NCBI GenBank assembly: GCA_051362555.1 | Contig: CM120647.1 | Coordinates: forward strand, 1,860,001 to 1,924,000 | Direction: 5' to 3' | Source of the DNA: Lingula anatina | Lineage: Eukaryota > Animalia > Brachiopoda | DNA: 64,000 nucleotides | Shown here: positions 5,328-64,000 of the stretch, one piece after another | Numbering within the stretch: position 1 is the first letter of the stretch | Layout of the letters: the number at the start of each line of letters is the position of its first letter | Program-made: the position numbers and the translations under genes | Notes under the pieces: generated by a model | Databases searched by the model: none | The model's input: the letters and a program-made list of their open reading frames with translations, nothing else | What the model was told of the DNA's origin: nothing

Positions 5328-23296
<17,969 letters not shown>

Positions 23297-25295: not shown

Positions 25296-25691
25296 TATAT
25301 TTTTTCGGCAATTATCTGATGAAATTTGATAAATGCTTTACTTTTCCTCAGATTAGAAAAATGAATTTATGAATAAAAAAGAAATCAAAAATTCAATTTT
25401 AATACCCTTTATTGCGTTTGTTGTTCATCAAGCCCTCGTCCACAAAAGCAATGTGAATTAAATTAAGCAAAGGGGAGGATAACACGTCTGATTGCTGATC
25501 TTAACTTTTTCCGAGTATGGATTCTTAAGATAAAATGCGTTTTCGATAAAGCTATACATAAGTTTATCTTTGTTACGTAAATGTGTGGGGTTTACTTTTT
25601 TTAGCTAGCGATGAAGCTCCTTAGAATCCAAATTATCTTCTTTGTTCCAAGTCATGATGGTGGATTCAGCTAGAACGATTTGTTTTCTTCT

Positions 25692-27849
25692 TTACACAGC
25701 CATTACGACATCTGTAAACTCCTCCTCGGAAATTTGATCAACCCTGAAACATAAGTTTAACTTCTATGTCATAAGTTAAAATACTGATGGATCTTTGAAG
25801 ATCTACTATAAAGATCTAATATGTAAACCAGGCATCCTGTTGTGGCGGCACATTGTGTAACTACCTATATATAATATGGAAATGAAAGATGAGACTGTGT
25901 TATTTAGTTTGAGTACAGATTTTCAAGAAAAGGCGTGCCCTTAAAGGAAAAGCCTAATTAATTGATATAGCCTGCATGGATACTTACATAATTACATGAT
26001 TATTTGAATGCAGTTTATCCATAAAATCTGTTATGGCGGCACAATGTTTCAATAAAATTTTATTTTGTAACCTTAAAGTATTATATTTGATCAAATGTCA
26101 TATTGAACCATGTTTCAACAAATACACACCCATATCAAATGTCCATTCTCCAGCCATTTTGTACCTTTTTGCTGTTTTTATAATATGTTTTCTGGGTGAC
26201 ATGTGATTCGGTTTCTACTTCAGATCATTTCAAACATTTTTAATGCAGCTGTAGCTTTGAAATTGCCAAAATTGAGAAATGCATTTTTTTAGATAGTTCA
26301 GTGGATCACTTGACTTTAACTGTACTGAAGAAAGTTACCCATACAGTGTTCACTTTGTAGATGCGTGTGAGTAAACGATATAAACATTTGAGATAGAGAC
26401 CCGTACATTGTGAACAGTTTCAGGGGTAATCCTAGAGAGGGGTAAGAAACGTCCATTGTTCTCGTCAGTGAGGCTAACCAAATTCAGGGTATGTACGCAC
26501 AGACAGAAAACTTAAGTATTGTGGGAACGTTACTAATGAAGCCACTGGTAGTACTAGTAGATATCAGTCTGTAGTCTTGAACAAGCACCTCCTTGACGAG
26601 TGAACAGTTGTCAAAAACAAAAGACCCAGGTGTGGTAGATCGACTACTGTTCGTGCGTGCCGCAAAGACCAAGCCTAATAGCCCCTCAAGATCACAAACT
26701 AATATCCGGTGCTGACGGTTAGGCTCGTCATAATCATATAAGTAGCGCGTTTCCACCCCCTGACAGTTTGAACAGATAGTGCCATCATACCTTTTTCTGT
26801 CCATGTCACTGAATACAGCTCTGGCATATGACACGTTGTCAACTGCTCTCTTTTTGTCACACGTGCAATAGGAGTACCTGTAATTAAATAGTACCGAAAG
26901 CAATGAGTCAGAAATGTCATTAGCGTTTTTTGAAGGATCTAAGCAGTACGTCTGCTAGGTAGTAACACACGGATTACTTTGTTCCATCAAGGATATTGTT
27001 GTCTAGAAAATTTTACCTTATTTTGAAACAACTGGCCAATAGATTTTGATACTCAAGAATCAATATGATCCAAATCGATGTGTTTCACTCTGCATTTTCA
27101 AGCAAGACCCAATACTTACAGAGAATCATATCTGTATACAGTGTTAACACAGTCCTCACTCTTTCTACAGCCACCTTGACAAGCACAACCGAAGATGTTA
27201 CACGATCCAACACCACAGTACGGAGTCCCCTGCAATAGGGTAAGTGAACTGTATGAGCGCTTTCCATCTCATTTACACGCGTAGAATCGATTATATAACA
27301 CGCGTTTAAATGTAGAGCTATGCTGTTGTTCACATCACACTCGGAAAGATTTTGAATTTATTGAATTTCTCATGACGAACGGAACAGCCAATGTCATTGG
27401 AAAAGCAGATTTCGATTCGCGTGCTTCAGATTTTGAAAACTTAGAGCAGACGAACGGCACTAAAAGCAGTACGTTCATGTTTGATGCAGTGCATCTGACA
27501 CTATTTTGGGATCAAACCAAGACTGTCGTCATAAGCAAGTTGCGCGAAAACCGCGTTAAACTAATGCACTTTCAGGATATCAGATACAGGATTATATAAG
27601 ATGCTTCCAATGTGACACACACAAATACACTCAACTTCTCAGGTTTTGTCTCAGTATACATGAAATTGTTTTAGTGACGTTTAATCTATGGTGAAAAATT
27701 AATATCACATTATGCGTTCATTGACGTACCATTTTGCAGTCGGCACAGTAATCGGAACGTACGATAATACAACAGACTGCCTGCCCAACTTCTACCATGC
27801 TTGCTGCAACAAAGACAGCAACTAGCAAAATGGCACTACAGCTCACCAT
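25692..27849 (-). CDS. Diedel-like secreted cysteine-rich protein, copy 1 (122 aa)
   Basis: Exons 27849-27730, 27229-27120, 26877-26791, 25743-25692 (369 nt, phases 0/2/2, GT-AG): MVSCSAILLVAVFVAASMVEVGQA-VCCIIVRSDYCADCKMGTPYCGVGSCNIFGCACQGGCRKSEDCVNTVYRYDSLYSYCTCD-KKR-AVDNVSYARAVFSDMDRKRVDQISEEEFTDVVMAV*. Upstream non-coding exon donor (gtgagt) near 27946; AATAAA on minus at 25408-25413. Confidence 0.85.
26421..26762. mobile_element. Non-autonomous TIR element (hAT/P-like ends) in the last intron of Diedel-like copy 1
   Basis: acagttt|caggggt...ccccctg|acagttt: CAGGGG TIRs and a 7-bp target duplication; the empty site (gaacagtttgaa) is present in copy 2. Confidence 0.8.
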
Positions 27850-28027
27850 GGCCTGAGATAGCTGAAAGAGTAATAGGAAATCAACAAGATGAAATTGTGC
27901 AACGACAAAATGACGTTTGTTCACTTCAAGACACTGTAATAACTCACCAGCTGAGTTGTTTGAGATTGGTTTGGTGAAACCGTGGCAACTCTATTTACAG
28001 CCTCTATAAATGTGCCTCTAGTCTCAG

Positions 28028-28034
28028 TGAGTCA
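28028..28034. promoter_or_regulatory. AP-1 site conserved in the proximal promoters of the Diedel-like genes
   Basis: TGAGTCA at 28028, 40142 and 46931, at the same position just upstream of the non-coding first exon; TTAGTCA at 33354 in the startless copy 2. Confidence 0.45.
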
Positions 28035-31000
28035 GCGGTACCCTATGTTCAAGAGCAACGTAATGCATTGTGTTAAATCCTTAATTTCTATGAGCTCTAC
28101 CATCAGCTGCCCCATAGTATGAGCAGCAGAGCAAAGATAAAACAAGGATTAGTCGAACTCCCTAGATATTAAGGGTGGACTGCGTCGTGCTGGCTGTCCT
28201 TTCAGTAGGTTCACCGCGTTGACAGGGACTACTTTTATTTTTTTACAATACATTTAATGTGGTTGGTGTGTTATTCCCAACTTTGACGAACGTACCTATA
28301 TTAGCACATCAACCAGTTTAAGCGGCAACACACGTCATGCTACACGTTTACATGTAGTGCCATGCTAGTGTTCACATCACAATCGGAAAGATTTCGAATT
28401 TATTGAATTTTCAACAGACCTCATGCTACACGTCCTTTTTATTTTTAAAAATACAAAGGAAATGATGACATAGTTTATTTAAAAATATTGAATATTGATC
28501 AAATGTGCATTGGGTGGCAAACATGGACATTAACCCAATATTCATTAAAAATTGGTGTAGCACAGTCTATAGATGAGTTTGTACTAGTACATTAAGGTAT
28601 ACAATTGAAAAAAAAAAAAAGCAAAAACAAGCTTATTTTGTTTTGTACTACCACCAGATTTTAAATACAAAATACGAATGTGTCTATATAATACAATGTA
28701 GTTGTATAAATAAATTCTATAGTGATACGAATAGGCTTTTCATTATACTAAGGTATCAAAAAAGATGTATCTTTAAATATTTTTAATGCAAAGCTCTTTG
28801 ACAGCAATGTGGTAAACATTCTTTAAATGAGCTCGAGTATTATTGATCTAGCGCGCAATTCAATCGATAGTAGTTTTCTTTTCCTTCAAGAAATGACAAC
28901 TTTTCAGCTAAGGATTGTTAAACTTTCTGTGATCTTTTGTATTTCAATCACTTACCGTACCTTTGATTAACGCTGCTAACCTTCTTTGTTTGAATTTGTC
29001 ACAGTTCTACATAATTTGATGTTTAAATATGAATAAGTCGTTGAGGGTATTGGACCTAAAAGTTTTAACAAGTTAGTCTCCGATAGTCGCAATTTAACCT
29101 GTGTAACAGTATATGAGCCGGATTCTACTGATATTTTGTCCTACTGGTTCTAAATAGATGACGACTGCTCTTAATGAATTTTGACACGTCCCATGTTTCT
29201 AGTTTCAAGAAAAACAAGCACGTTGTTACCGTGTCTTTAGCTAAGCTATTAAGATTTGCATTCAGTTAATTATGGAATAGAATTTTTTGGTTTGATAAAT
29301 CAGATAACATGTATCCAAAAGGTTTACTGGACTGTCTACTCACGTCCTATAAAAAAGGATCTGCCATATAAAGCAAATTAGATATCTACTACACATGTGA
29401 AACCAAGACGAAAGAGAATGATAACCCAATATGTTTCGTGGTGGAGGGGATCGTTTTTAAAGGATGTGCTTTAAATTGTGCGATATAACTATAGAGTGTT
29501 TTTTTAATAGAAAGTAGAAATTCCCATCAACCTTTTCATACCCACCGCCACTAAAACAAAATTTAGAGCGAAAGAGAAGGTAAGTCTGAGTGGCGCCCTT
29601 AACTTTAATAAAATTGCCCTCAAACATATAAAAGGGGGCATTCCTAATATAGGATACCTACCAGCCGTGTGGTTTGCTATTGGCTTGATGAAATCTGAAA
29701 CTGAACTAATTTTACTCGCAAATTGGATAATATGCGGCTTGTCAGTCCATCATTCCCTGCATTACAACATAAAAGATGTTTTAAATACTCGTTTCTGTGA
29801 CCTCTAATAGCAGCTTAAATGTGGTTGTAATAGCATTTTAACATTCTGTCGAAATTCAGCACTATGCGGTTGCCCTTTTAGAAGTGACACGCTATAAAGG
29901 GTCTTCTTAGTTTTAAGTGATGTACTAAATTTGATATATTTAAAATTAAGAGTAATTTCTCACAATTTGAACGAGGATTCATGTTATCATTATTATTCAA
30001 AACTTCAAGGTTGGTATTGAAAAGCCCGGTGAAACACACACCCAGTATTGAGTTGATATGATATGAAAATTAAAAATAGAATCAGATTTTCTCTCACATA
30101 CTGTAACATATTTTTGTCGTTTTGACTGCATCGGTTTACAAAATATAATTTCTACATCGAAATAAATATGATACTGAAAGTTGATGGTATTTCTCAATGA
30201 TATTTTCTGCACCAGCCTTCCCCGTGCATCGTGTATTTTCAGCGTCTTGATGACAAACGTGTCTCACTTTGGTTCCGCATTGCTAAAGGGTCAGGTTTTC
30301 ATCGTCTTAAATCAGATTTTAGGCTAACCAAAGCAAGGGGTCCTTATTGGAAAATGAATATTTTTTTAAAAAATAACTGCGTAAATCCCGTCGTCTTATC
30401 AAAATCTGCAAAGTATTTGCCACAATTTGAGCGCATACAGAACAAGTTGAACTGCAGACTAACAAATTAGCGAATCAAATACGGCCAAATTAAAAACAAT
30501 GCCGACTGATCTGCTGATGGTCCCCCGCCCCCACACCCGCTGCCCCTGCAGGGGACTAGCAATTAAATCCCGGAGCCAAGATCTAAGCCCTTTAATAAAC
30601 ATTTATGCTTTTTGACAGCCACTGAATGCGCGAATGACTCCTTACAAAAGGCTGGATCTAGTGATGTTACGCCGCTGTACAACCTGAGTTTATTTTAGAT
30701 TTTATTGCAATTTTACAGTTTTTTTTAATTTACACTACTTGACGTATTTTTCATTTTAAACTATTTTACTTCGACAAACCAAACTTAAATCCCCCTTACC
30801 TGACTCTCGACATACCTTTGACAATCTAGAAAATTTAAAGAGCACTTGACCCATGCTTATTAGCGCTTGGTGTTTAAATTCAGCCATCCCCTTGAGCTCC
30901 TGGTTTGCCAGGAGGTTTAAAATATGATTATTTAATTTTGGTAGTAATTTAACAATTAAGCAACTATCTGTTGAAGTATGATAAAATGAATTAATGGATA

Positions 31001-31300
31001 AAAAAGAAATCAAAAATTCAATTTTAATACCGTTTATTGCGTTTGTTGTTCATCAAGCAATATGAATTAAGCAAAGGGGAGAATAACACAGTCTGAATGC
31101 TAATCTGAACTTTTTCAGAGTAAGGATTCTTAAAATAAATGCGTTTTCGATAAAGCTATATGCTGTAAGGTATCTTTGCTGCCTAAATATGTAGGGTGTA
31201 CCTTCTCAACAAGCGCTGAAATCCCTAATAGTCCATACCGTCTTCTTTGTTCCAAGTCATGATGGTGGATTCAGAATAAAGAATAAAGTTTATTTCTTCC

Positions 31301-33181
31301 CTACAGAGCCATAACGACATCTGTTAACTGATCCTTGGAGATTTGATCAACCCTGAAAGATACGTTTAACTTCTATTTTATAAAACTTCTTTCTCATCTA
31401 AATTCATCTCCCGTATAACACATTTGATAAAAATACAATAATTCAACTGTTTTCCTTTCTGACTGTTTTCCTTTTTTAGGTCAGACCAATTTCATAAACT
31501 TCCAATGGAAATGCGAAGAGAATCCTTCGCTTCACCATATGTATCACATTGTATATCTACCTATACATAATATGGGAATGAAAGACAAGAATGTGTTATT
31601 ATTTTGAGTACAGATTTTCAAGAAAAGACTTCGCCTTAAAGAAAAAGACTATTCAAATGTTAAAGCCTGCATGGATACTCAAGATATGTTGAGATAGTCT
31701 GGACAGAATTGCATGATTATGTGCACGTAGATTATCCAGAAAATCTGTTATGGCGGCACAATGTTTCAATGAAATTTTATTTTGTGACCTTAAAGTATTA
31801 TAGTTAATCAAGTGTCATATTATTCCATGTTTTAACAAATGCACGCCCTTATCGAAGGTCCATTTTCTAACCATTTGAACATTTTTTTTCTTTTTGTATA
31901 TAATGTTTACTGGATGATATGTGACTCAGTTTCCACTTCTGTTCATTTCAAACAGTTTTAATGCAGCTGTATACTATAGCTTTGCAATTGCCAAAACTGA
32001 GAAGTGCATTTTTCAAGTTTATCAAATACTTCAGTGGATTACTTCTGTATTTAACTGTTCCAAAGAACGTTGCCCATACAGCGTGAACTTTTTAGATGCG
32101 TATGAGTAAACGATATGAACATTTGAAATAGAGACCTGCACATTGTGAACAGTTTGAATAGATAGAGCCATCATACCTTTTTCTGTCCATGTCACTGAAT
32201 ACAGCTCTGGCATATGGCACGTTGTCAACTGCTCTCTTTTTGTCACACGTGCATTCGGTGTAGCTGTAATTAAATAGTACCTCATACAATGAGTCAGTCA
32301 TGTCATTAGCGTTTTTGAAGGATCTAAGCGGCACGTCTGATAGGTAATAACACACGGATGATTTTGTTCCATAAGGATATTACATGTCTACAAATTTAAC
32401 CTTATTTGTAGACAACTAACCAATAGATTCTGATGCTTAAGAATCAATATGATCCAAATCGAAGTGTTTCACTCTGCGTTTTCGAGCAAGACCCAATACT
32501 TACAGAGAACCATTTCTGTATACAGTGTCAACACAGTCCTCGCTCTTTCTACAGCCACCTTGACAAGCACAACCAAAGATGTTACATGATCCAACACCAC
32601 AGTGAGGGGTTTTCTGTAAAAGGGCAAGTGAATCGTATGAATGTATACCATCTTATTTAAGGCTGGGTCACACTGCACTTGCTACCTTTTGGCAACGTTT
32701 TGGCAACCACAAAATCTGGCGGTCGCTTGCGATCGCTTTGCAAGCTAATTTTAAAATGTGGCCAATTTTGATAGGCAACCGGTAGCAAGCCGATTTCGAT
32801 TCCTTCATCCGAAGATTTTGAAAGCGTACTAGTAGAGCAAACGAAAGGCATTCAAAGCAGTCCGTTAATGTTTAATGCGAAACTAATTTGAAACTATTTT
32901 GGAATCAAACCATAACGCAAAAACCACGGTAAACTAAAGCACTTTCAAGATATTAGATACAGGATTATATAAGATGCTTTCAATAAGACACACACGAATA
33001 CACTCTCATGTTTTGTCTTAATAAACATGTAAAATCTCGCCTCACACGTTAATTGACGTACCTTTTTGCAGTCGGCGCAGTAAGCGGCATTTAAGACGAT
33101 ACAACAGACAGCCTGCCCAACTTCTACCAAGCTTGCTGCAACAAAGACAGCAACTAGCAGAATAGCACTTCTGCTAAATTT
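31301..33181 (-). pseudogene. Diedel-like copy 2: start codon and exon-2 acceptor lost, rest of the frame open
   Basis: gccATG of the other copies reads gccAAA (33179-33181) and acceptor ctttcag reads ctttcaa; downstream exons still encode VCCIVLNAAYCADCKK-KTPHCGVGSCNIFGCACQGGCRKSEDCVDTVYRNGSLYTECTCDKKR...RVDQISKDQLTDVVMAL*. Confidence 0.75.
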
Positions 33182-33737
33182 GGCTTGAAATAATTGAAAG
33201 AGTGATAGAAAATCAACACGATGAAATTGCGCAACGACAAAATGCCGTTTGTTCACTTCAAGACACTGTAATAACTCACGAGTCGAGTTGAGTTTGGCTT
33301 TATGAAACTGTGACAACTCTATTTACAACCTCTATAAATATCCCTATAGTCAGTTAGTCATTGGTACCCTGTGTTCAAGAGCAACGCAATAGATATATGT
33401 TAAATCCTTAATTTATATGGGCTCTACTATCACCTGTCTTATATTAAGAGTAGCGAAGCAAATATAAAACAAGGATTAGTCGAACTCCCTAGAAATTTAG
33501 GGTGGACTGCGTGGTCCTGGTTGTCCTTTTCAGCAGGTCCATCGTTTGATTGGCACTACTTAAAAAATTTTAACAATACATTTAGTGTGGTTGGTGTTAT
33601 TTCCAACTTTGAAGAACGTAATTATATTGGCACATCAACCAGTTTAAGCGGCGACAGACGTCATGCTACACTTAATAATTATTTTTAAAAATACAAAGGA
33701 AATAATGACGTAGTTTATTAAAAATACTCAATTGTAA

Positions 33738-33950
33738 AGCCCCCTTTACACTAGTCGACGTCATTTCTACGTCCCGTAGTACGGCCCCGTTTTAGAGTGA
33801 AAAAAACGTATAATACTTCACGTGCCGATCATTGAAAATTCCTTCTTCAACCAAAGCGATGCTTGAGTATCCTTTTTACGAACACAGCGCTGACAGTTTC
33901 CTGGTCGCTCAAAGGACGCAGAAAGGACGCCGTCCAGTGTAAAGGGGGTT
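33738..33950. mobile_element. Harbinger-type MITE
   Basis: taa|agccccctttacact ... agtgtaaagggggtt|taa; absent from the homologous region near 28490. Confidence 0.75.
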
Positions 33951-33963
33951 TAAGCAATTGTGT

Positions 33964-35095
33964 CATGGCCAGAAATGTGCAGCATTCACGCGATACGCGA
34001 GGGCGAAACAGTAGGGCTTCACGTAACTCAACTAACCAATCACAGCACAAGAATGGCATCGCACACAGACTCTGTGATAAGTGCTCAGCCCATTATCAAG
34101 TAGTGTTAGTTCATGGTAACAAGCGTCTGATATGTGCAGAGAAGTTTATTATTATAATATATATTGTTTTTATTGTTACATTATTAAATCTAACTCTGTA
34201 TCCAAGTAGTAACTATACTGTACCAAGCCAGGTACTGATGATGTGCAGAGGTCATATATTCATTACCACTGATTTATAACTTTTATTTTTGTTTAATATG
34301 TTATTCGTGAAAGAGTTCATGAAATATTATTTTAATTTGTTAAATCGTGATCTTATTCTTTTTATATTCAAATAATTGAATAATGTGGGTAAAATTGATC
34401 TTCCACTTCTTTTTTGCATTTTTCCTTTACTACAAGATTATTTTGGAACAGTTGCAGTATAAAAATTTAAATAAATAGCAATCTGAAAGAAGAATTTTGC
34501 ATAATTATTAAATGATGATATGAATTTTGGATTAAGAGATTAGTTAAATACTGAGTATAGTGATATGGTCAGTCAATTTATGTAGAATCTGTTAATATGA
34601 TTGAAAATACTGATTGAATTCTTGGCCTTGCACTGAGCAGTTTCACATTTGTGGCAAGTGCTCTTTTTGGACTCCATTGTACAGTGGTAAAAAATCTTCA
34701 ATTGCCATAAAAGTTTTTCATCAGACTCTGCATGGTGCTGCTATCTGCTGGTGCTATCGGCAACGAATTAATTTGCCTATGTTTCTGAGTGAATTTACCG
34801 TCAAAAATCACTATTACTGAAAATATTTGCGTTTTGCTGAGGGTAGGCTAGGCAATATACGGCAAACTTCTTAGTAAGTGTGTACAACAGATTAAAAAAA
34901 ACCCTAGCGATTTTTGGTCAGGGGTTGCTTGAAGCATAGCACAGCGTTTCTGTCTATCGGCATCAGGCTGTTAGTTTGTCAATTCTCACGAATTACCCAC
35001 CCATTCATTTTCCTATGGCAATCTAGCAACTCATTAAAAATGCACGCATGCGCAGTGGGCTAGACGTTACGTCATGCAGTGCATTTCTGGGGATG
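33964..35095. mobile_element. Non-autonomous DNA transposon with CAT... termini (P-element-like)
   Basis: TIRs catggccagaaatgtgcagcat / atgcagtgcatttctggggatg; degenerate 8-bp flanks aattgtgt / cattgggt; interrupts sequence that is contiguous at ~28500 in unit 1. Confidence 0.6.
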
Positions 35096-36091
35096 CATTG
35101 GGTGGCAAACATGGACATTAACCCAATATTCATTAAAGATGGATTAAGTACAGTCTTTAGATGAGTTTGTACTAGAACATTAAGGTATACAATTGAAATC
35201 AAGCAAAAACAAACTTATTTTGTTTTGTACTACCACCAGATTTTTTTATTTGAAATACGAATGTGACTGTAGAATACAATGTAGCTGTATAAATAAAATC
35301 TATAGTGATACAAAATGCTTTATACTGAGGTATCAAAAAAAGATGCATCTTTACATATTTTTATTACAAAGCTCTATGACGGCAATGTGATTTACAATGT
35401 TTAAATGAGCTCAAGTATTACTGATCTAGCGAGCAATCCAATCGATAGTAGTTTTCTTTTCCTTCAAGAAAAGGCAACTTTTCAGCTAAGGATTGTTAGC
35501 CTTCTTGCGATCTATTGTTTTTCCAATCACTTGCCGTATCTTTGATTAACGTTGCTAACTTTCTTTGTTTTAATATGTCACAGATATACATAATTTGACG
35601 TACATTCAATCAATTATCGAATAATTTTTGTTTTTTTTTTTTTTGGGGGGGGGGGTGATAAATCAGATAACATATATCCAAAAGGTTAACAGGACTGTCT
35701 ACTCACGTCCTATGAAAAAGGATCTGCTATATAAAAGCAAAATAGATATCTACTACACATGTGAAACCAGGACGAAAGAGAATGATAACCCATTATGTTT
35801 CGTGGCGGAGGGGATCGTCTTAAAAGATGTGCTTTTCAAAGTGCAATTTAAAAATTGTGTGATATAACTGTAGAGTGTTTTTTTTATAGAAAGTAGACAT
35901 TTCCATCAACCTTTTCATATCCAACGCCACTAAAACAAAATTTAGAGCAAAAGAAAAGGTCAGTCGGAGTGTCGCCCTCAACTTTAATAAAGTTACCCTC
36001 AAACATAAAAAGCAAAGTAGGCATTCATAATATAGGGTATCTACCAGCGGTGCGGTTTGCTATTGGCTTGATGAAATCTGACTAACTTTAC

Positions 36092-36210
36092 TTCGCTATG
36101 TTGCGCACGTGCCATGGACGTGCACAAGTGTCTCGATTCCATGGCCCCGTATCTCGAAATAGAATCGGTTATGGAATCGAGACACTAACACGCGTGCGCA
36201 ACATAGCGAA
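36092..36210. mobile_element. Small hairpin MITE
   Basis: ttcgctatgttgcgcacg / cgtgcgcaacatagcgaa with inner gtgtctcgattccat / atggaatcgagacac arms. Confidence 0.75.
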
Positions 36211-36224
36211 CCTACGGAGCCCAG

Positions 36225-37168
36225 GCCCCCGTTTCACAAAAATCTTAAATCCGTTGTTGACTAGCTCGAGCTGACAGGCCTAGCTCGGTCGACTACGCTG
36301 TAGTCGACTAGGACTGTTTCACAAAGAATCTAAAGTCGTAGCTTGGTGTGCTCACCGTAGTCGACGCGCACAAGAAACTCTTCAAGAAAAGGGGGTGTAA
36401 AATTCGAAGACTTTCACAAGAAATGACGTTTCATGGTCTCTTTCGGCCGAGAAAGATCGTTTATCTACAAAAATCGACCAAAACACAGACAAAGTTTGTT
36501 TTTCAAGTTTATTGATTAGTTTAACTTCAATGCAACTTCAAAGTAACACTTAAACATTAGCTTGTCGTGGAACACTGCTGACGGACGTTTAGAGGTCAAA
36601 AACAAACAAACACTCGATCGGCTGGGTGAAGTGGCATTTTATTTTTTTTTTCAATATTCCATAAATGTCAGTGCTATTCAAGGATATTATAATACAAAAT
36701 CTTGATGGAGGTATGTTTTTTCTAATTTTTTGTTGTTTATGCTCTCATTTAGCGAGTTTTAGTTGAGCTGGCCGACTTAAGTCTCCTCCCGAGGAGGCTA
36801 GACATCGTCGACTAGCAGCTAAGAAAAAACGACGTACCTTGTAGATTATTGTATGGTTGTGACCAATTGTGTTAAATTGTGTTAGAGGTGACTATGCAGT
36901 GGGTCCCTCTAGTGGTAAAAAAAAAGAGAAAAGTGAGGGTGAAGTTGTGAAGTTGTGGCAAGTTTGTCGGTTACACGTGTTTTTCCATGTTGGAAAGAGT
37001 GTTGACTCCATGCGGAGTGAAGTTGTGACATGTTTGTTGGTCACACGTGGTTCGAATGTAATGTAAAACTGTAAAATGAAAAACAAAATTGAACTAGCGC
37101 AAGTTTTTATTTACTTTTAACTTCAACAGTCAGGGAAACCGACTTAAGTTTTATCGTGAAACGGGGAC
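36225..37168. mobile_element. Non-autonomous PIF/Harbinger element
   Basis: cag|gcccccgtttcac ... gtgaaacggggac|cag: TIRs with a 3-bp CAG duplication; sits at the junction between array units 2 and 3. Confidence 0.75.
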
Positions 37169-38009
37169 CAGCGAATCAAATACGGTCAAATTAAAAGCAG
37201 TGCCGACTAATACGCTGATGGTCCCCCGCCCCTGCTGCCCCTGCAGGGGACTAGCAATTAAAGCCTGGAGCCAAGATCTAAGCCCTTTAATAAACATTTA
37301 TGCTTTTTGACAGCCACCCATACTGAATGCTCGAATGACTCCTTACAAAAGGCTGGATCTAGTGATGTTACGCCGCTGTACAACCTGAGTTCATTTTAGA
37401 TTTTATTGCAATTTTACAGTTTTTTTTTTTTTTTTAATTTACACTACTTGACGTATTTACCATTTTAAACTATTTTACTCCAACAAACCAAACTTAAAGC
37501 CCCCTCACCTGACTCTCGACATACCTTTGACAATCTAGAAAATTTAAAGTGCACTTGACCCATGCTTATTAGTGCTTGGTGTTTAAATTCAGCCATCCCC
37601 TTGAGCTCCTGGTTTGCCAGGAGGTTTAAAATTTCATTATTTGTTTTTGGTATTAATTAAATAATTAAGCAATTATCTGTTGAAGTATGATAAAATGAAT
37701 TAATGAATAAAAAAGAAATCAAAAATTCAATTTTAATACCGTTTATTGCGTTTGTTGTTCATCAAGCAATATGAATTAAGCAAAGGGGAGAATAACACAG
37801 TCTGAATGCTAATCTGAACTTTTTTAGAGTAAGGATTCTTAAAATAAACGCGTTTTCGATAAAGCTGTATGCTGTAAGGTATCTTTGCTGCCTAAATATG
37901 TAGGGTTTACTTTTTCAACTAGCGCTGAAATTCCTAAGAGTCCATACCGTCTTCTTTGTTCCAAGTCATGATGGTGGATTCAGAATAAAGAATAAAGTTT
38001 ATTTCTTCC

Positions 38010-39958
38010 CTACAGAGCCATAACGACATCTGTCAACTGCTCCTTGGACATTTTATCAACCCTGAAACATACGTTTAACTTCTATTTTATAAAACTTCTT
38101 TCTCATCTAAATTCATCTCCCGTATAACACATTTGATAAAAATGCAATAATTCAACTGTTTTCCTTTCTGACTGTTTTCCTTTTTTAGGTCAGACCAATT
38201 TTATAAACTCCCAATGGAAATGCGAAGAGAATCCTTTGCTTCACCATATGTATCACATTGTATATCTACCTATACATAATATGGGAATGAAAGACAAGAA
38301 TGTGTTATTATTTTGAGTACAGATTTTCAAGAAAAGACTTCGCCTTAAAGAAAAAGACTATTCAAATGTTAAGCCTGCATGGATACTCAAGATAGGTTGA
38401 GATAGTCTGGACAGAATTACATGATTATTTGCATGTAGTTTATCCAGAAAATCTGTTATGGCGGCACAATGTTTCAATGAAATTTTATTTTGTGACCTAA
38501 GAGTATTATATTTAATCAAATGCCATATTATGCCATGTTTTCACAAAAAACACGCCCTTATTGAATGTCCGTTTTATAACCATTAGGACTTTTTTCTTTT
38601 CGTATATAATGATTTCTGGATGATATGTGACTCGGTTTCCACTACAGATCATTTCAAACAGTTTTAATACAGCTGTAGCTTTGCAATTGCCAAAATTGAG
38701 AAGTGCGTTTTTCAAGTTAATCAAATACTTCAGCGGATCACTTCTGTTTTTAACTGTTCCAAGGAACGTTGCCCATACAGTGTTAATTTTTTAGATACGT
38801 ATGAGTAAACGATATTAATATTTGAGGTATAGATCCATACATTGTGAATAGTGTGAATAGATAGTGGCATCCTACCTTTTTCTGTCCATGTCACTGTATA
38901 CAGCCTGAGTATTGGTTCTGGCATATGGCGCATTGTCAACTGCTCTCTTTTTGTCACACCTGCATACGGTGTACCTGTAATTAAATAGTACCGCATACAA
39001 TGAGTCAGTTTTGTCATTAGCTTGGCGTTTTTTTTTTTTTTTTTTTTTTCTGAAGAATCTAAGCGGCACGTCTGATAGATAGTAACACACTGATAACTTT
39101 GTTCCGTCAAGGCTATTGTTGTCTAGAAAATTTTACCTTAATTATTTTAAAACAACTGGTCAATAGATTCTGATACTCAAGAATCAGTATGATTCAAATC
39201 GAAGTGTTTACAAGCAAGATCTAATACTTACAGAGAACCATATCTGTATACAGTGTTAACACAGTCCTCGCTCTTTCTACAGCCACCTTGACAAGCACAA
39301 CCGAAGATGTTACATGACCCAACACCACAGTGAGGAGTCACCTGCAATAGGAGTAGTGAACTGTATGAGCGTTTTCCCTATTATTTACACGCGTACAATC
39401 GTTTATATAACACGTGTTTAAATGTAGTGCTATGCTAGTGTTCATATCACACTCGGAAACATTTCGAATATATTGAATTTTCTCATAACGGACGGAACAG
39501 CCAATGTCATTGGAAGAGTCGATTTCAGTTCCTTCATCCGCACGCTTCAGATATTGAAAGCGTGGAGAATTAATGTTTAATGTGGTGCACTTGAAACTAT
39601 TTTGGAATCAAACTAAGACTGTCGTCATAATCAAATTTCGCGAAATCCACAGTAAACTAATGCATTTGCAAGATATTAGATACAGGATCATATAAGATGC
39701 TTTCAATGTGATACAAAAAAAAATACTCAACTTCTCCAGTTTTGTCTCAGTGTACAGGTACATGAAATTGCTTCAGTAACGTTGAATTTATGGTGAAAAA
39801 ACTAATCTCTTCTTATACGTTCATTGACATACCTTTTTGCAGTCGGCACAGTAAGCGGAATGTAAGTCAATACAACATACAGCCTGTCCAACTTCTACCA
39901 AGCTCGCTGCAACAAAGACAGCAACTAGCAGAATAGCATTACTGCTAGGCCTAACCAT
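38010..39958 (-). CDS. Diedel-like secreted cysteine-rich protein, copy 3 (128 aa)
   Basis: Exons 39958-39833, 39341-39232, 38974-38876, 38061-38010 (387 nt): MVRPSSNAILLVAVFVAASLVEVGQA-VCCIDLHSAYCADCKKVTPHCGVGSCNIFGCACQGGCRKSEDCVNTVYRYGSLYTVCRCD-KKR-AVDNAPYARTNTQAVYSDMDRKRVDKMSKEQLTDVVMAL*. Confidence 0.85.
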
Positions 39959-41029
39959 GGCTTGAAATAGCTGAGAGAGTAATACAAAGTCAACAAAATG
40001 AAATATCGTAACGACAAATTTATGTCGTTTGTTCACTTCAAGACACTGCCTGTAATAACTCACCAGTTGAGTTGTTTGAGATTGGTTAGGTGAAACTGTG
40101 GCAACTCTATTTACAGCCTCTATAAATATGCCTCCAGTCAGTGAGTCATTGGCACCCTATGTTCAAGAGCAACGTAATGCATTGTGTTACATCCTTAACT
40201 TCTATGGGCTCTACCATCAGCTGTCCCATAGTATGAGCAGCAGAGCAACGATAAAACAAGGATTAGTCGAACTCCCTAGATATTCAGGGTGGACTGCGTG
40301 GTGCTGGTTGTCCTTTTCAGTAGGTTCGCCACGTTGACAAGGGCTACTTTTATTTTTTAACAATAAATTGAATGTGGTCGGTGCCTTATTTATAACTTTG
40401 ACGAAACAAAAACAAGATTATTTTGTTTTGTTCTACCACCAGCTTTTTGAATACAAAATACAAATGTGTTTGTATAATACAATGCAGCTGTAAAAACAAA
40501 TACTGCTGATACGTTTGAGCTTTTCATTATACTGAGGTACCAAAAATGTATCTTTAAATATTTTTTATCCAAAGATCTTTGACGACAATGTGATATGCAT
40601 TCTTTAAATGAGGTCGAGTATTGTTGATCTAGCGTGCAATCCAATCGATGGTAGTTTTATTTTCCTTCAAGGAACAATAACTTTTCAGCTAGGGATTGTA
40701 AACCTTTCTGTGATCTGTTGTATTCAATCACTTATCGTGACTTCGATTAACGCTGCTAGGCTTCTTTGTTTTAATTTGTCACAGTTCTACATAATTTGAT
40801 GTCTAAATATAAATGACTCGTTAAGGGTTTTGATCCTGAAAGTTTTAACAAGTCAGTCTACGATAATCGCAATTTAATCTGTGTAATAGTATATGAGCCG
40901 GGTTCTACTTATATTTTGTCCTACTGGTTCTAAATAGAGGACGACTGCTCGTAATGTTTTTTTTAACACGTCCCATGTTTCTAGTCTAAGAAAAACAATC
41001 ACGTTGTTACCGTGTCTGTAGCTGAGCTA

Positions 41030-41370
41030 CACTGTAAAAACAGTGTTTAGCTCCTACACACATTTCTAAGCGCCTATTTTGTCTCATTTTTTAGACGCGT
41101 TTAGCTCCTAACATGCTTAGCTCCTTGACATATTACACGCTTTTAGACCGAATGTGTTTAGCAGTATGACGCGTTTGACGTCTAATAAATGTAGGGTGTA
41201 TTGTTTAACTTTTAGGTGCTAAGGGTTTCAACTGTTTAAGTCGCACACACACACACACACACACACACACGAACTCACGGTCACCTTTAACTGCTATAGT
41301 TATCTTTTTCTATAACAGGGTACCGTGAACTGTCAACATCGCTGACTTCACAACATCATCTTTACAGCTG
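41030..41370. mobile_element. Probable truncated EnSpm/CACTA-like insertion end, containing (CA)n
   Basis: Homology to unit 1 breaks at tagctgagcta|cactgtaaaaa; CACTGTAAAAA-type terminus followed by tttagctcc subrepeats; no clean right TIR found. Confidence 0.35.
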
Positions 41371-43267
41371 GACTTATTGTATTTCTGAAGAGCAAGTTAG
41401 GAAAATTCACTAGTTCTCTACAGGCACGAAACAACTATCACTTTTACTTTAAAACACCTTTCTTCATATTTTGATAAAATGCGTTACGGTATTGATATCT
41501 ATTTATTTTTTCCGGAAATATTGAACAATAGAACATCAGGATAATGGTGGGGTATTCATTATAATACTTTATTTAAGCTTTCATCACATGCTGGTTATTT
41601 CGTTACCGATAGTCCGAATATTCTACAATTCCCACCGCTCTAGTCGCCGACTAACCCCAAGCCCATTTTGGAATTAACCGTTAACTGTAGTTCAAACAAC
41701 ATAAGACGTGTTTTGGTTATTTATATTAAAAAAAGGTTATCAAAACATTATATAATGTTTTTCCAGAATGTTATAAACACGCTGATAAAACTCCACAAAA
41801 TGGTGTTATCATAAAATTTTGTAGAAACGGATCTTTTTTACAAAGTATAACGTTACTATACATCATTTTGCATGAGTTAAAACACCCATAACGTTACCAT
41901 AATGTTATTGTTTACCATTACCAGTATGTAACCATCTGACAACGTCGTAAAAATGTTATTTGTTATTTGGATTATTACTTAAAGGTACATATGAACCGAG
42001 CATCGGTGGAGCGTGGGTTTCCAGTAACACATATAAACCACTTCCACTAGATACGTCGACATGCCAAATGACAAACTGAATAAATCACTCGATCAGCCAT
42101 AAAAGAGCTTAAGACTGCTCTTTAAATTTTTGGTAAAAAATTTAACCTACTTATGTGACCTACTTTTCTGCCCCATGTATATCATGTACAGGATAGTAAC
42201 AGGCCTACCCAACTACCAGACTCGGCACCGAATGATCCAGAATTCACCGGTAAATCGGACCACACTACCCGTTTTCAGATCTTATCTCTAGAAATGGGGT
42301 CTTAGTTTTAAGTGATGCACTAGATTTGATATATTTATAATTAAGAGTAATTTCTAACAATTTGAACGAGGATTCATGTTATCATTATTATTCAAAACTA
42401 CAAGGTTGGTATTGAAAAGCGCGATCACGCATCCAGTATTGAAACACACTTTTTTTACTAAAAATATAAGAACGCAGACAATCTGAACGAATCATATACT
42501 GAACCTCTCTATATATCTTGTGGTGGAAATGATTGTTTATATTATTTTTCCCTTTCACTCATTCAAACAATGGATAACTATCACTTATGAAGTGCAATTA
42601 TATCAAAAATGAAAATTTGAAAGCGCATATAAAAAAACAACCGTTTGATTTAATCTGTTTTTGTACCACCGCTGTAAAATACAGGATGTACCTGCATGCA
42701 AACGCAGTGTAAGCACCGATAGAGAGAAAAACTAAAAGTTATACTTAGTCACTTGAAAATGATTTTTACAGATTCCTCTTTTTCTAAATGTCAGCAACGG
42801 AGTCTAAGGTTAAAAAAAAACTTGAAATTGGGCAGCGGTGCATCTGATCAATAGCAATGCTCAATTTTTACAAAATGAAACATGATTGGTAATGAAATGG
42901 TGCCATTTGGTACGGTTTAGATTATCAGAGATTAGATTTCCAGAGGGGACCATTGGTGTGACTTTTTTTTCAGAAATCGAAGGGGGGGTTCAGGACTCCT
43001 CTTACACCCTCGGATCCCCTAAACCCTCCACTGCAAGCCTGTATTTGTAAGCTACACTGTATTTTCACAGCCTTTTCCAAAAACCGCTATAGTTTTGATG
43101 ATTAACGGGTGACCCCAACTCCTAAACCCTTCATGGGTCAACGTTTAACTAAATTTTTTGAATTGAATATATTCATTTTATTCATTTTTAATACTCTGTG
43201 CAATATTTTAACATGGATGCATTTGAATTCTTTACCTATTTTAGCACAGAATATACCCAGTCCGTTA

Positions 43268-43433
43268 TTAGTCCATTTCAGTATATGCGTCGTAATCATC
43301 CTCCCCTGTGTCCCAAGGTTCTCCACCAAATTCCGTGTTGATTTTCACTGTCTCCTCTATTTGTGTTACAATAGAGGTGAAGTCTGGTCGCTCCTCTGGC
43401 TCCCACGACCAGCACTTCAACATCAGCTGGTAC
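43268..43433 (-). pseudogene. Orphan duplicate of the RTK2 terminal kinase exon, with ~0.9 kb of upstream intron
   Basis: 43250-44300 aligns with 51670-52745; acceptor ttccag intact; encodes the same YQLMLKCWSWEPEERPDFTSIVTQIEETVKINTEFGGEPWDTGEDDYDAYTEMD*; no other kinase exons next to it. Confidence 0.8.
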
Positions 43434-45111
43434 CTGGAATAGTACCAGACGACAGGGTAGGCACAAAATGGATACAAGCAAGAGAACAAAGGCGGCATCA
43501 AAATATAATGTTATTATCAACCTAGCCCATATATCAGTACATGAAACATAGAGGCAGATTCAGGATTATTTAAAGAAAGCTTCCAGTTGTAGGACTGACA
43601 GGCCGCAGATTTGAAGCCGATCCCCCCCCCCCCCCTTCTTCCCCTATCGGCGTGGGGTCCCGGAAATTTTGGGTATTTTGGAGAGCGAACGGTGCCATTT
43701 GGTACGGTTAAAAACTATGATTCAACTAGTCAAAATTCGTATTTCAACAGGGGACCATTGGTGTGTTCTTTTTTCCAGAAAGCGAAAGGGGGGGGGGGGG
43801 GGGTCAGGACCACCTGACTTCCCTAAATCCGCCACTGCCAGCATTTATTTGTAAGCAACAGTGTATTTTCACAGCTTTTTCTATAAACCGTTATGGTGTT
43901 GATGGTTAACGGGTGACCCCAACTCCTAAACCCGTCCATACATGCAGTGTATATGGATTTTGCCTGCCTACATGTATGTGTATATACAGGTACACGAACA
44001 TACAGCTGATACAAGGAGGCGCGGACTCAGCAGGCAGAAATATACAAAGCACCAAATACGAGAACTTAAATAATTTAAAACCTGCTATAACAACATGTTA
44101 TATAATACTGAAAAATTAAGTTTTCACTCTCACAGAAATACAGAAATAGAAGATTATATATAGGCCCTATAAATTATCAAGACTGATGTCAGGGGAGACA
44201 TATCTCTTTGCTATGAACACTGAATGTAGTTGTATATACTCGTGGACTGACTGGTGTCTTAGCCATGTCCCAGTTCCACTATGAAAAATTTAAGTCAGTT
44301 TTCGCACGCGCCGTCCCCAAAAGGGCCTAGCAGAGCCGAAATTTAATCCGTTTAATATACATTTAAGCTTTTCGACAGCAGCCCAAACTAAACGCACAAA
44401 ATAAAATTTAAAAAGTTTGGATCTGGTGCCACATGCTCAAAGTTCCGATTGCTGGTGATGTTACTAATCTGTGTAAACGAAGTTTATTTTAGATTTTATT
44501 GCAAATAAACTGTTTGTTTAAATTCACCGTACCTGACGTATTTTCCCTTTTTAAACTATTCAACTCTGGCCAACCAAACTAAAATCCTCTTTGCCTGACT
44601 CTCGCCATAACTCGATTAATCTGGGGAATTTAAAGAGTACTTAATCCATGCTTAGCGCTGGGTGTTAAAAATTCAGCCATCCACTTGAGTTCTAACATCT
44701 GAATATTTGTTTTTGTTATTTTTTAAAATCTATGGCAATTATCTGTTGAAATATGATAAAATGCATTACTTGTGTCCTCAGATAAGAATAATGAATTTAT
44801 GAATAAAAGAGAAATCAAAAATTCAATTTTAATACCCTTTATTGCGTTTGTTGTTCATCAAACCCATGTCCACAAAAGCAATGTGATTTAAATTAAGCAA
44901 AGGGGAAGATAGCACAGTCTGAATGCTGATCTTAACTTTTTCCGAGTAAGGATTCTTTTCGAAAAAGCTATATGCATGAGTTTGCTATCTTTGCTGCTTG
45001 AATATGTAGGGTTTACTTTTTCAGCTAGCGATGAAATTCCTAAGAATCCATATTATCTTCTTTGTTCCAAGTCATAAAGCTGGATTCAGCTAGAATAAAG
45101 TTTGTTCTTCT

Positions 45112-46745
45112 CTACACAGCCATTACGCCATCGGTTAACTGCTCCTTGGAGATTTGATCGACCCTGAAACATACGTTTAACTTCTATTTCATAAAACTTC
45201 TTTCTCATCTAAATCCATCTCCCGTATAACACATTTGATATAAAAAAAGTTAGTTTATCCAGAAAATCTGTTATGGCGGCACAATGTTTCAATGAAATTT
45301 TATTTTGAGACCTAAAAGTATTATATTTAATCAAATGTCATATATGCCATGTTTTAACAAATGCACACGCTTATCGAATGCCCATTTTCTAACCATTTGA
45401 ACATTTTTTTCTTTTTGTATATAATGTTTTCTGGATGATGTGTGACTCAGTTTCCACTTCAGATCATTTCAAACAGTTTTAATGCAGTTGAAGCTTTGCA
45501 ATTGCCAAAATTGAGAAGTAAATTTTTCCGGTTTATCAAATACTTCAGTGGATCAATCCTGTCTTTAACTGTTCCAAAGAACGTTGCACATACAGTGTGA
45601 ACTTTGTAGATGCGTATGAGTAAACGATATGAACATTTGAGATAGAGACCCGTACACTGTGAATACTTTGAATAGATAGTGCCGCCATACCTTTTTCTGT
45701 CCATGTCACTGTATACTGCTCTGGCATTGGCTCTGGCATATGGCACATTGTCAACTGCTCTCTTTTTGTCACACCTGCATACGGTGTAGCTGTAATTAAA
45801 TAGTATCTTCTGCAATAAGTAAGTCATGTCATTAGCGTTTTTTAAGGATCTCAGCGGCAAGTCTGATAGTTAGTAACACACTGATTACTTTGTTCCATCA
45901 AGGATATTGTTGTCTAGAAAATTTTACCTTATTTTAAAACAACTGGTCAATAGATTCTGATACTCAAGAATCAATATGATCCAAATCGAAGTGTTTCACT
46001 CTGTGTTTTAGAGCAAGATTCAATACTTACATTAAACCATATCTGAATATAGTATCAACACAGTCCTCGCTCTTTCTACAGCCACCTTCACAAGCACAAC
46101 CGAAGATGTTACATGACCCAACACCACAGTGCGGAGTCACCTGCAATAGGAGTAGTGAACTGTATGAGCGTTTTCCCTCTTATTTACACGCGTTCAATCG
46201 TTTATATAACAGTACGTGTTTCAATGTAGTGCTATGCTAGTGTTCACATCACACTCGGAAACATTTCGAATTTATTGAATTTTCTCATGACGGACGGAAC
46301 AGCCAATGTCATTGGAAGAGTCGATTTCAGTTCCTTCATCCGTGCCCTTCAGAGTTGAAAGCGTAGAGAATTAATGTTTAACGCGGTGCACTTGAAACTA
46401 TTTTGGAATCAAACTAAGACTGTCGTCATAATCAAATTTCGCAAAATCCACAGTAAACTAATGCATTTGCAAGATATTAGATACAGGATCATATAAGATG
46501 CTTTCAATGTGATACAAAAAAAAACTCAATTTCTCAAATTTTGTTTTAATACACATGTAATTGCTTTAGTAACGTTGAATCTATGATTGTGAAAAAAATT
46601 ACCTCTTCTTATACGTTAATTGACGTACCTTTTTGCAGTCGGCGCAGTAAGTCGAACCGTCAATACAACAAACAGCCTGGCCAACTTCTACCAAGCTTGC
46701 TGCAACAAAGACAGCAACTAACAGAATAGCACTACAGCTCACCAT
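45112..46745 (-). CDS. Diedel-like secreted cysteine-rich protein, copy 4 (125 aa)
   Basis: Exons 46745-46629, 46140-46031, 45789-45691, 45163-45112 (378 nt): MVSCSAILLVAVFVAASLVEVGQA-VCCIDGSTYCADCKKVTPHCGVGSCNIFGCACEGGCRKSEDCVDTIFRYGLIYTVCRCD-KKR-AVDNVPYARANARAVYSDMDRKRVDQISKEQLTDGVMAV*. Confidence 0.85.
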
Positions 46746-48165: not shown

Positions 48166-48374
48166 TACAGACTTGACATTTAATATGGAGTTTTTTTTTT
48201 CAAATCATTTTTCATCAGTTTTTTTTCTGTCCAATTTGGTCCAGGTTTGTTGTTGGACTTGTATGCCATTGATTCGGTGAGTAATGGTCTACCCACATAT
48301 TGCCTATGTGGTTAAAATATGGCGATTTTGATGACCAAGGGAGCTGCTCATAGTATTGTGAATTATCTGCTATT

Positions 48375-51688: not shown

Positions 51689-64000
<12,312 letters not shown>

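What the first reader, a model, noticed from the sequence alone, without database searches (positions are those of the whole stretch)
25692..46745. Hidden tandem array of four Diedel-like secreted cysteine-rich genes
Seen: four homologous units, each with four short coding exons (52-126 nt) that splice in phase to a 122-128-aa precursor with a hydrophobic signal peptide and the motif CC-x5-7-C-x-DC...TP[YH]CGVGSCNIFGCAC[QE]GGCR. The ORF track never shows this motif because the key exon has no start codon of its own. Knowledge: TPYCG.G.CNIFGC.C.GGCR is the hallmark of Diedel (PF13164), a Drosophila infection-induced cytokine that dampens IMD signalling and has homologs in insect DNA viruses. 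Inference: this is a lineage-specific expansion of Diedel-family immune effectors or cytokines in an animal that also has MET-type kinases, which Drosophila lacks.
Basis: partly seen in the sequence, partly recalled or inferred. Interest (0 to 1): 0.9.

Follow-up and report, generated by a model that had tools for sequence, protein, structure and literature searches.

The report
Brachiopod mytimycin-like defence peptide array
These are four side-by-side copies (one has lost its start codon) of a lamp-shell gene for a small, likely secreted, 12-cysteine peptide built like the mussel antifungal peptide mytimycin, which was thought to be mussel-only; the peptide shares its core loop with the fly immune protein Diedel, so the two families are likely related.

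Summary
The four units are real and the splice coordinates are exact. Copy A equals Lingula anatina RefSeq LOC106160243 from residue 17. Copy B lacks the ATG. Exon 2 passes Pfam Diedel (30-33 bits, cut-off 21.3), but only Diedel's small SD2 loop is shared: there is no room for its ferredoxin-like half and no RGD. The whole precursor instead follows mussel mytimycin: signal peptide, type-II 12-Cys array, KKR site, EF-hand-derived tail. Here the first EF-hand loop is degenerate, and the second lies decayed beyond a stop at the same position in all copies. RNA reads from a diverged homologue span all three coding joints. At least 13 further Lingula paralogues exist, and the module occurs, often with EF-hands, in mites, a springtail, a nematode and fungi. 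Best reading: a lineage-specific expansion of mytimycin-like defence peptides, function untested. It contradicts the published restriction to Mytilida and gives mytimycins a structural template (PDB 3ZZO); I found no paper linking the two names. The scan noted a similar knot-plus-EF-hand gene in a sea squirt before.

The parts
27730..27849 (-). Copy A coding exon 1: ATG, signal peptide, CC..CxDC
   Evidence: matches P0001
27120..27229 (-). Copy A coding exon 2: Diedel-SD2/mytimycin core
   Evidence: Pfam Diedel E 1e-7; PDB 3zzo E 2.3e-5
26791..26877 (-). Copy A coding exon 3: CxC, KKR site, first half of degenerate EF-hand 1
25692..25743 (-). Copy A coding exon 4 to the stop: second half of EF-hand 1
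25596..25691 (-). Copy A: decayed second EF-hand beyond the stop codon (now 3' UTR)
   Evidence: tblastn of paralogue P0052 runs through the stop, E 6e-4 within the window
26421..26762 (.). 342-bp MITE-like insertion in intron 3 of copy A only (CAGGGG ends, 7-bp target duplication)
   Evidence: carried in many unrelated transcripts
27948..28034 (-). Copy A putative promoter and non-coding first exon: AP-1-type TGACTCA at 28034, TATA-like at 28010, donor after 27948
   Evidence: same layout in all four copies; function inferred, not tested
33062..33181 (-). Copy B exon 1 equivalent; ATG and upstream acceptor AG lost
32504..32613 (-). Copy B exon 2 (core)
   Evidence: Pfam Diedel E 4.1e-7
32177..32263 (-). 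Copy B exon 3
31301..31352 (-). Copy B exon 4 to the stop
39833..39958 (-). Copy C coding exon 1
   Evidence: homologous RNA reads
39232..39341 (-). Copy C coding exon 2 (core)
   Evidence: Pfam Diedel E 5.5e-7
38876..38974 (-). Copy C coding exon 3
38010..38061 (-). Copy C coding exon 4 to the stop
   Evidence: EF-hand 2 remnant at 37984-37910 is weak alone (E 1.5)
46629..46745 (-). Copy D coding exon 1
46031..46140 (-). Copy D coding exon 2 (core)
   Evidence: Pfam Diedel E 2.8e-7
45691..45789 (-). Copy D coding exon 3
   Evidence: spliced reads over the 527-nt intron 3
45112..45163 (-). Copy D coding exon 4 to the stop; EF-hand 2 remnant continues to 45016
43246..44303 (-). Orphan copy of the last kinase exon of the right-hand receptor tyrosine kinase gene, lying between copies C and D
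   Evidence: 88% identical to 51667-52751; Pfam PK_Tyr_Ser-Thr E 1.2e-4

Best explanation
Copies A, C and D encode mytimycin-type precursors that are predicted to be secreted and cut at KKR, likely releasing a 59-60-residue, 12-cysteine host-defence peptide that likely acts on microbes, most plausibly fungi; copy B lacks its start codon and is likely a recent pseudogene. Shown: gene anatomy, the 12-Cys array, the KKR site, purifying selection on the cysteines and core, the EF-hand remnant, and splicing of a close homologue. Inferred: a 24-26-aa signal peptide leads the chain into the ER, six disulfides form, and a furin-type convertase removes the tail. The free 6.3-6.6 kDa peptide would bind its target through the exposed Asn-Ile-Phe loop, which Diedel presents as a hydrophobic patch. 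The EF-hand tail has likely lost calcium binding and serves at most as a neutral-to-acidic propiece. The array arose by tandem duplication after EF-hand 2 was lost, in the order A,(B,(C,D)); the last event likely carried along an exon of the neighbouring kinase gene.
For: Cys spacing in the window is 0,6-7,2,6,4,4,1,3,5,13,1. Read by eye from the mytimycin supplement, Modiolus philippinarum Mphi_1 gives 0,6,2,6,4,4,1,3,5,7,1 and Perumytilus Perpur_2 gives 0,6,2,6,4,4,1,3,8,6,1, both followed by a dibasic site and an EF-hand pair. A pattern for this type-II array fits all 4 copies but only 10 of 145 homologous representatives, and 9 of those 10 are named Lingula proteins. The precursor plan of signal, 54-aa 12-Cys peptide, dibasic site and EF-hand extension defines mytimycin (PMC8004829). 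The top ESM Atlas cluster is a 144-aa molluscan EF-hand protein (score 0.90, a lead only). The tail is 44% identical to Lingula P0052, which has intact EF-hands. The AlphaFold tail is helix-loop-helix, and EF-hand chains rank next after Diedel. Selection: pairwise dN/dS is 0.29-0.48 overall and 0-0.28 in the core; all 12 Cys survived in only 4-18 of 4000 neutral simulations. Run X5 has spliced reads on the expected strand over all three coding joints (13, 6 and 10 reads). Mytimycin inhibited Neurospora and Fusarium (PMC3210125 passages).
Against: No activity was tested. No named Mytilus protein came back, so the mussel comparison is by eye and by pattern, with no alignment score or tree. The mature peptides are near neutral (K+R-D-E of -1 to +1), while mussel mytimycins are reported as usually cationic. 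The intact EF-hand domain is missing. The RNA reads carry fixed differences and join pieces of different copies, so they come from a diverged homologue; at 95% likeness, 0 of 4 runs put reads on exons of A or B. A spliced joint was listed in only 1 of the 4 runs (13 joint rows were not shown). Introns are as alike between copies as exons (87-91% versus 84-94%), so the array is young and the selection counts are small. The same module occurs in fungi and an alga, so an antifungal role cannot be general to the family.
Confidence: 0.55

Rival explanations
1. The peptides are Diedel-like cytokines that dampen immune signalling or cell death through a host receptor.
For: Pfam Diedel above cut-off. 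Diedel is the top structural hit (Foldseek E 0.19, probability 0.93, rmsd 1.6 A over 32 columns; VIA Z 3.0, rmsd 3.4 A over 51 residues). The conserved N-I-F loop was proposed as an interaction site (PMC3307722). A near-neutral charge suits a receptor ligand better than a membrane-lytic peptide.
Against: Only SD2 is shared. About 15 residues lie between the CC pair and the core, where Diedel has the 31-residue first half of SD1. There is no RGD, which Diedel needs to bind integrin (PMC9116668 passages). The CxDC pair, KKR site and EF-hand tail are mytimycin features.
Confidence: 0.22
2. The peptides are secreted recognition or matrix proteins (mucus, mantle, shell or opsonin) that bind a microbial or matrix glycan through the N-I-F loop without killing.
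For: Near-neutral charge; an invariant core with variable flanking loops; wide use of the module, also fused to other domains, among the hits.
Against: No binding data. A processing site plus propiece is the usual plan of mussel antimicrobial peptides.
Confidence: 0.13
3. The whole array is decaying: EF-hand loss began pseudogenisation and none of the copies now makes a useful product.
For: B has lost its ATG; the EF-hands have decayed in all copies; no reads at 95% likeness on A or B; a transposon sits in an intron of A.
Against: No frameshift or internal stop in any copy; all 12 Cys kept (4-18 of 4000 under neutrality); low core dN/dS; a homologue is spliced and expressed. Several other Lingula paralogues also lack EF-hands, and one mussel mytimycin does too.
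Confidence: 0.07
4. The peptides are ligands of the two flanking Sema/PSI/IPT receptor tyrosine kinases, forming a linked ligand-receptor cluster.
For: Position only: the array sits between the two convergent kinase genes.
Against: At least 13 other Lingula paralogues lie on other contigs, most of different lengths; their neighbours were not seen. MET-type ligands are kringle/protease-like proteins (recalled). No binding test was run.
Confidence: 0.03

Closest known systems
Mytimycins of Mytilida, type II array (Mytilus clusters A/I/J/K; Modiolus, Perna, Perumytilus; PMC8004829)
   Same: Signal peptide, 12 Cys in the same order and nearly the same spacing, CxDC..TPxCG..CNIFGCxC core (followed by GGCR in the non-Mytilus mussels), dibasic site, EF-hand-derived extension, non-coding first exon, multigene family with pseudogenes.
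   Different: Brachiopod host; longer loop between Cys10 and Cys11 (13 versus 6-7 residues); near-neutral mature peptide; EF-hand 1 loop degenerate and EF-hand 2 lost behind a stop; four coding exons (public MytM gene sequences are described as 3 exons and 2 introns); activity unknown.
Drosophila Diedel / CG11501 (Pfam PF13164, PDB 3ZZO/3ZZR) and viral homologues (Xestia c-nigrum granulovirus ORF106)
   Same: N-terminal CC pair plus the disulfide-rich SD2 loop with the exposed Asn-Ile-Phe motif; signal peptide.
   Different: No ferredoxin-like SD1, 12 Cys instead of 10, no RGD; has a KKR site and an EF-hand-derived tail that Diedel lacks.
Uncharacterised Lingula paralogues (e.g. LOC106158650, LOC106165319, LOC106161196, 'calcium-binding protein 4-like' XP_013380547)
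   Same: Same 12-Cys plus dibasic plan (XP_013380547 holds only the tail part, twice).
   Different: These keep one or more canonical EF-hand loops and are mostly cationic (-3 to +8 across the paralogues scored); the window's four copies form their own clade (100/99).
Unnamed Diedel-core plus EF-hand proteins of mites (Oppia, Medioppia, Sarcoptes), springtail Allacma, nematode Acrobeloides and fungi (Sistotremastrum, Infundibulicybe)
   Same: Secreted-type Cys core, often followed by an EF-hand pair (53 of 145 representatives have a canonical loop).
   Different: Mostly fewer core cysteines and CxDG instead of CxDC (69 versus 26 of 145); none has a known function in what I read.

Membership tests
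Mytimycin | N-terminal signal peptide of about 23 aa | tested here: met
   24-26-aa hydrophobic leader ending GQA in A, C, D, helical in the model. No signal-peptide predictor was run. B lacks the ATG.
Mytimycin | 10 backbone Cys plus the optional C-terminal pair (type II, 12 Cys) | tested here: met
   Spacing against sequences read by eye in the supplement; pattern test.
Mytimycin | Conserved central block under purifying selection | tested here: met
   2 variable sites in 20; core dN/dS 0-0.28; 6-85 of 4000 neutral runs were as conserved.
Mytimycin | Dibasic cleavage site after the last Cys | tested here: met
   KKR in all four copies. Cleavage itself not shown.
Mytimycin | C-terminal extension with an intact EF-hand domain | tested here: not met
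   No Pfam EF-hand hit and no canonical loop. A homologous remnant is present. The family paper accepts one member without the region. Filed as mytimycin-like, not as a mytimycin proper.
Mytimycin | Cationic mature peptide (pI 7-9) | tested here: inconclusive
   pI 5.0, 6.7, 7.6 and 5.6 for A-D, net -1 to +1. Mussel cluster J is about +2 by the same count, by eye. The paper's values use another method and include the basic cleavage residues.
Mytimycin | Antifungal activity; haemocyte expression induced by fungi | not testable with these tools
   The RNA runs are coded and give no tissue or treatment.
Diedel (PF13164) | Pfam score above the gathering cut-off | tested here: met
   30.4-32.7 bits for exon 2 and 26.7 for the full protein, against 21.3; covers profile 35-69 of 76 only.
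Diedel (PF13164) | SD2 disulfide loop with exposed Asn-Ile-Phe | tested here: met
   Sequence match; rmsd 1.6 A over 32 columns in a predicted model, Foldseek E 0.19, not significant alone.
Diedel (PF13164) | SD1 ferredoxin-like subdomain (residues 29-59 and 90-117) | tested here: not met
   Only about 15 residues between CC and the core against 31 in Diedel; the model shows one beta-hairpin in the mature part.
Diedel (PF13164) | 10 Cys / 5 disulfides | tested here: not met
   12 Cys in the mature peptide.
Diedel (PF13164) | RGD integrin-binding motif of D. melanogaster Diedel | tested here: not met
   Absent from all four copies; motif described in PMC9116668.
Diedel (PF13164) | Suppression of IMD, JAK/STAT or apoptosis | not testable with these tools
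   Needs cell or animal assays.
Canonical EF-hand | 12-residue loop with ligands at positions 1, 3, 5, 9, 12, Gly at 6, and a paired second hand | tested here: not met
   Positions 3 and 5 are Lys and Val in all copies, position 12 is Glu only in A; the second hand lies beyond the stop.

The most novel reading that the evidence does not exclude
Mytimycin and Diedel are two branches of one unnamed, eukaryote-wide family of secreted 'Cys-knot plus EF-hand' defence proteins. The knot plus EF-hand precursor predates the mollusc-brachiopod split, and Lingula holds a large expansion (17 or more genes) that has shed the EF-hands repeatedly. The shared N-I-F loop is the active surface, so an insect cytokine, its viral mimics and a mussel antifungal peptide use one binding principle, and the Diedel crystal structure gives the unknown fold and core disulfide pairing of mytimycins.
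Probability: 0.55. Interest if true: 0.68.

Novelty: new variant of a known kind. Interest (0 to 1): 0.5.

Why it matters
The 2021 family survey says mytimycins are restricted to Mytilida, that their EF-hand was likely acquired from another gene, and that their fold and disulfide pairing are unknown (PMC8004829). A brachiopod family with the same 12-Cys, dibasic, EF-hand plan moves the origin back to at least the mollusc-brachiopod ancestor, unless horizontal transfer or convergence is invoked. The match to Diedel SD2 offers a solved template for the conserved 'functional core' and names a testable surface, the N-I-F loop. The array is also a natural experiment on whether the EF-hand propiece matters: here it has decayed while the cysteines stay under selection. 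The genes themselves are a modest tandem duplication, and the Diedel domain label is already in RefSeq and Pfam.

Tried and rejected
No whole genome is held for this window, so paralogue count, synteny and the annotation of B-D could not be checked in DNA. Word-indexed searches with exon 2 and with P0001 returned only P0001 (2 and 4 candidates), which is weak evidence that B-D are unannotated. No RNA holder was listed by the index; 8 of the 9 raw-read runs were laid (X6 was not), and no run was laid on all four copies. The ESM Atlas gave no usable feature hit for the mature part alone, and its structure rows were all under TM 0.4 by query. Big-defensin (E 0.01-0.46) and Kelch/Keap1 hits (E 0.06 and weaker) fall below cut-off and were rejected as chance. 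The profile search of PDB was filled by calmodulins through the paralogues' EF-hands, 499 matches. The wide VIA search was not run; only the second look at 90 Foldseek chains was. Stop-codon read-through into EF-hand 2 was rejected: B and C are frameshifted right after the stop, and every remnant has a further stop. The tree (46 rows, 84 columns) does not resolve deep branches and does not unite all Lingula paralogues; it holds no named mussel sequence. The 16 extra N-terminal residues of RefSeq P0001 were rejected as a likely model artefact: the first 12 match exon 3 of B (or A) in another frame, ending one base short of the GT donor. No kB consensus site was found within 800 bp upstream of any copy. 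Literature: 'Diedel' plus 'mytimycin' 0 papers; 'Diedel', 'homolog', 'lophotrochozoa' 0; 'Lingula' plus 'mytimycin' 3 listings, none read for this point; 'Diedel' plus 'EF-hand' 3 listings, one checked by passages and unrelated. Three papers were not held: a 2018 Lingula immune-gene survey (recalled; it could already mention these genes), Sonthi 2011 on mytimycin gene structure, and Lamiable 2016 on Diedel. The 'full gene' cells of the mytimycin supplement are cut at 400 characters and Figure S1 is an image, so intron positions could not be compared. No complex prediction was run.


Full report
Observation. A six-frame scan found the core motif four times on the minus strand, and self-BLAST showed four units of about 6-7 kb. 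Each has four coding exons with GT..AG introns that splice in phase: A 27849-25692 (122 aa), B 33181-31301, C 39958-38010 (128 aa) and D 46745-45112 (125 aa). The core motif occurred 0 times in 30 shuffled windows. Copy B has no ATG at the orthologous site, has lost the acceptor AG there and has a changed AP-1-type site; its frame is otherwise intact. All copies have a TATA-like box and a GT donor about 100 nt upstream of the start, which suggests a non-coding first exon (inferred).

Organism and annotation. Exon 2 retrieved one protein, Lingula anatina LOC106160243, whose residues 17-138 equal the spliced copy A. Its 16 extra N-terminal residues look like a model artefact drawn from exon 3 of the upstream copy in another frame. 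The flanks are two convergent Sema/PSI/IPT receptor tyrosine kinase genes. An orphan last kinase exon lies between C and D. This fits the tree A,(B,(C,D)), with the four copies as one clade at 100/99.

Diedel link. Exon 2 of every copy passes Pfam PF13164 (30.4-32.7 bits, cut-off 21.3) and matches PDB 3ZZO (E 2.3e-5). An AlphaFold model from 116 sequences (pLDDT 83, pTM 0.49) has Diedel as its top Foldseek hit, but at E 0.19 over 32 columns (rmsd 1.6 A). VIA gave Z 3.0, and the top viral hit was granulovirus ORF106 (E 0.23). These structural scores are weak alone and agree with sharing one small loop. The structure paper (PMC3307722; I read parts 1-2 of 4) divides Diedel into a ferredoxin-like SD1 and a disulfide-rich SD2 with an exposed Asn-Ile-Phe loop. 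The window peptides have SD2 and that loop but no room for the first half of SD1. They also lack the RGD that Diedel uses to bind integrin (PMC9116668, passages). PMC6072105 (passages) describes Diedel as an anti-apoptotic cytokine with viral homologues.

Mytimycin link. I recalled the mytimycin plan and then checked it. PMC8004829 (parts 1-3 of 5; supplement parts 1, 6 and 8 of 9) defines a precursor of signal peptide, 54-aa 12-Cys peptide, dibasic site and EF-hand extension. It states that the family is restricted to Mytilida and that its structure is unsolved. The window peptides have 59-60 residues and 12 Cys spaced 0,6-7,2,6,4,4,1,3,5,13,1, followed by KKR. By eye, Modiolus Mphi_1 is spaced 0,6,2,6,4,4,1,3,5,7,1, differing from copy D in one loop, and the non-Mytilus mussels carry the same GGCR ending. 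A pattern for this array fits all 4 copies and 10 of 145 representatives (P0039 was dropped as unrelated); 9 of the 10 are named Lingula proteins. No named mussel protein was returned by my searches, so there is no score for this comparison. An unnamed hit, P0029, resembles the mytilid sequences by eye and is 45% identical over 58 residues.

The tail. After KKR come 35-39 residues that are 44% identical to Lingula P0052, which has intact EF-hands. The loop has lost ligands at positions 3 and 5. P0052 aligns through the stop codon into the 3' UTR of A and D (E 6e-4 and 1e-3 within the window), where a decayed second EF-hand remains; C gives a weak match (E 1.5), and B shows the same stretch in translation. 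The stop is at the same position in all copies, so the loss predates the duplications. Other Lingula paralogues keep two, one or no canonical loops.

Family range. HMMER found 146 representatives at E up to 0.001; 53 of 145 have a canonical EF-hand loop. Named members include 15 further Lingula proteins (P0052 among them, tail only), mites, a springtail, a nematode, fungi, Chlorella and Drosophila serrata; most hits are unnamed. An earlier scan note on a sea-squirt gene describes a similar knot plus two EF-hands; I did not test it.

Function and expression. Copies are 81-86% identical in protein, dN/dS is 0.29-0.48 overall and 0-0.28 in the core, and all 12 Cys survived in 4-18 of 4000 neutral simulations. 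Introns are as alike as exons, so the array is young and the counts are small. At 95% likeness, none of 4 RNA runs covered exons of A or B. At 85%, run X5 showed spliced reads on the expected strand over intron 3 of D (13 reads) and over the exon 2/3 and exon 1/2 joints (6 and 10 reads, laid on C and D pieces), with fixed differences. Most laid reads in those runs were under 95% alike and the kinase controls were spliced, so these animals differ from the reference. The gene model is therefore supported through a close homologue, while expression of each exact copy is open.

Verdict. The best-supported reading is a Lingula-specific tandem expansion of mytimycin-like precursors with a decayed EF-hand tail, likely releasing a disulfide-knotted host-defence peptide (0.55). 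The Diedel-type cytokine reading is the main rival (0.22). They are not filed as mytimycins proper (no intact EF-hand) nor as Diedels (no SD1, no RGD). The value lies in linking two separately studied immune families and in contradicting a published taxonomic limit. I found no paper holding both names, but the library omits most subscription journals and three relevant papers could not be read.

Noticed in passing
window 5325-23300 (+) and 64000-51690 (-): Two convergent paralogous receptor tyrosine kinase genes with Sema, PSI and IPT domains (MET/RON-like), 79-93% alike in DNA. Spliced reads support joints 51851/52899 and 53038/53542 of the right-hand gene.
   Followed up: partly
window 11159-12897 and 14877-16481: Internal duplication of about 1.7 kb in the left kinase gene, including a PSI-like Cys-rich exon (79-90% alike); could be an extra or alternative exon.
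   Followed up: no
window 43246-44303: Orphan duplicate of the last kinase exon between copies C and D, 88% like 51667-52751.
   Followed up: partly
window 26421-26762: MITE-like element with CAGGGG ends and a 7-bp target duplication, only in copy A; abundant in unrelated transcripts.
   Followed up: partly
window 13200-14130 (-): Open frames of 164 and 117 codons inside an intron of the left kinase gene; the 164-codon frame has no Pfam hit, the other was not scanned. Possibly a transposon remnant.
   Followed up: partly
window 33914-33953, 41980-42280, 48190-48430, 49350-49950: Further repeats that attract many RNA reads from other loci.
   Followed up: no
window 10218-10623: Tandem repeat of about 82-84 bp overlapping a PSI-domain exon of the left kinase gene.
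   Followed up: no
P0052 (XP_013380547): A Lingula model named 'calcium-binding protein 4-like' is two tandem tails of this family, probably a fused annotation of two neighbouring mytimycin-like genes missing their first exons; it is the best guide found to the ancestral tail.
   Followed up: partly
P0016, P0047, P0048, P0085, P0119, P0128, P0139: The same Cys core is fused to other C-terminal domains in unnamed hits (by eye: crystallin-like, PAN/apple-like, ricin-B-like, PI-PLC-like; not scanned).
   Followed up: no
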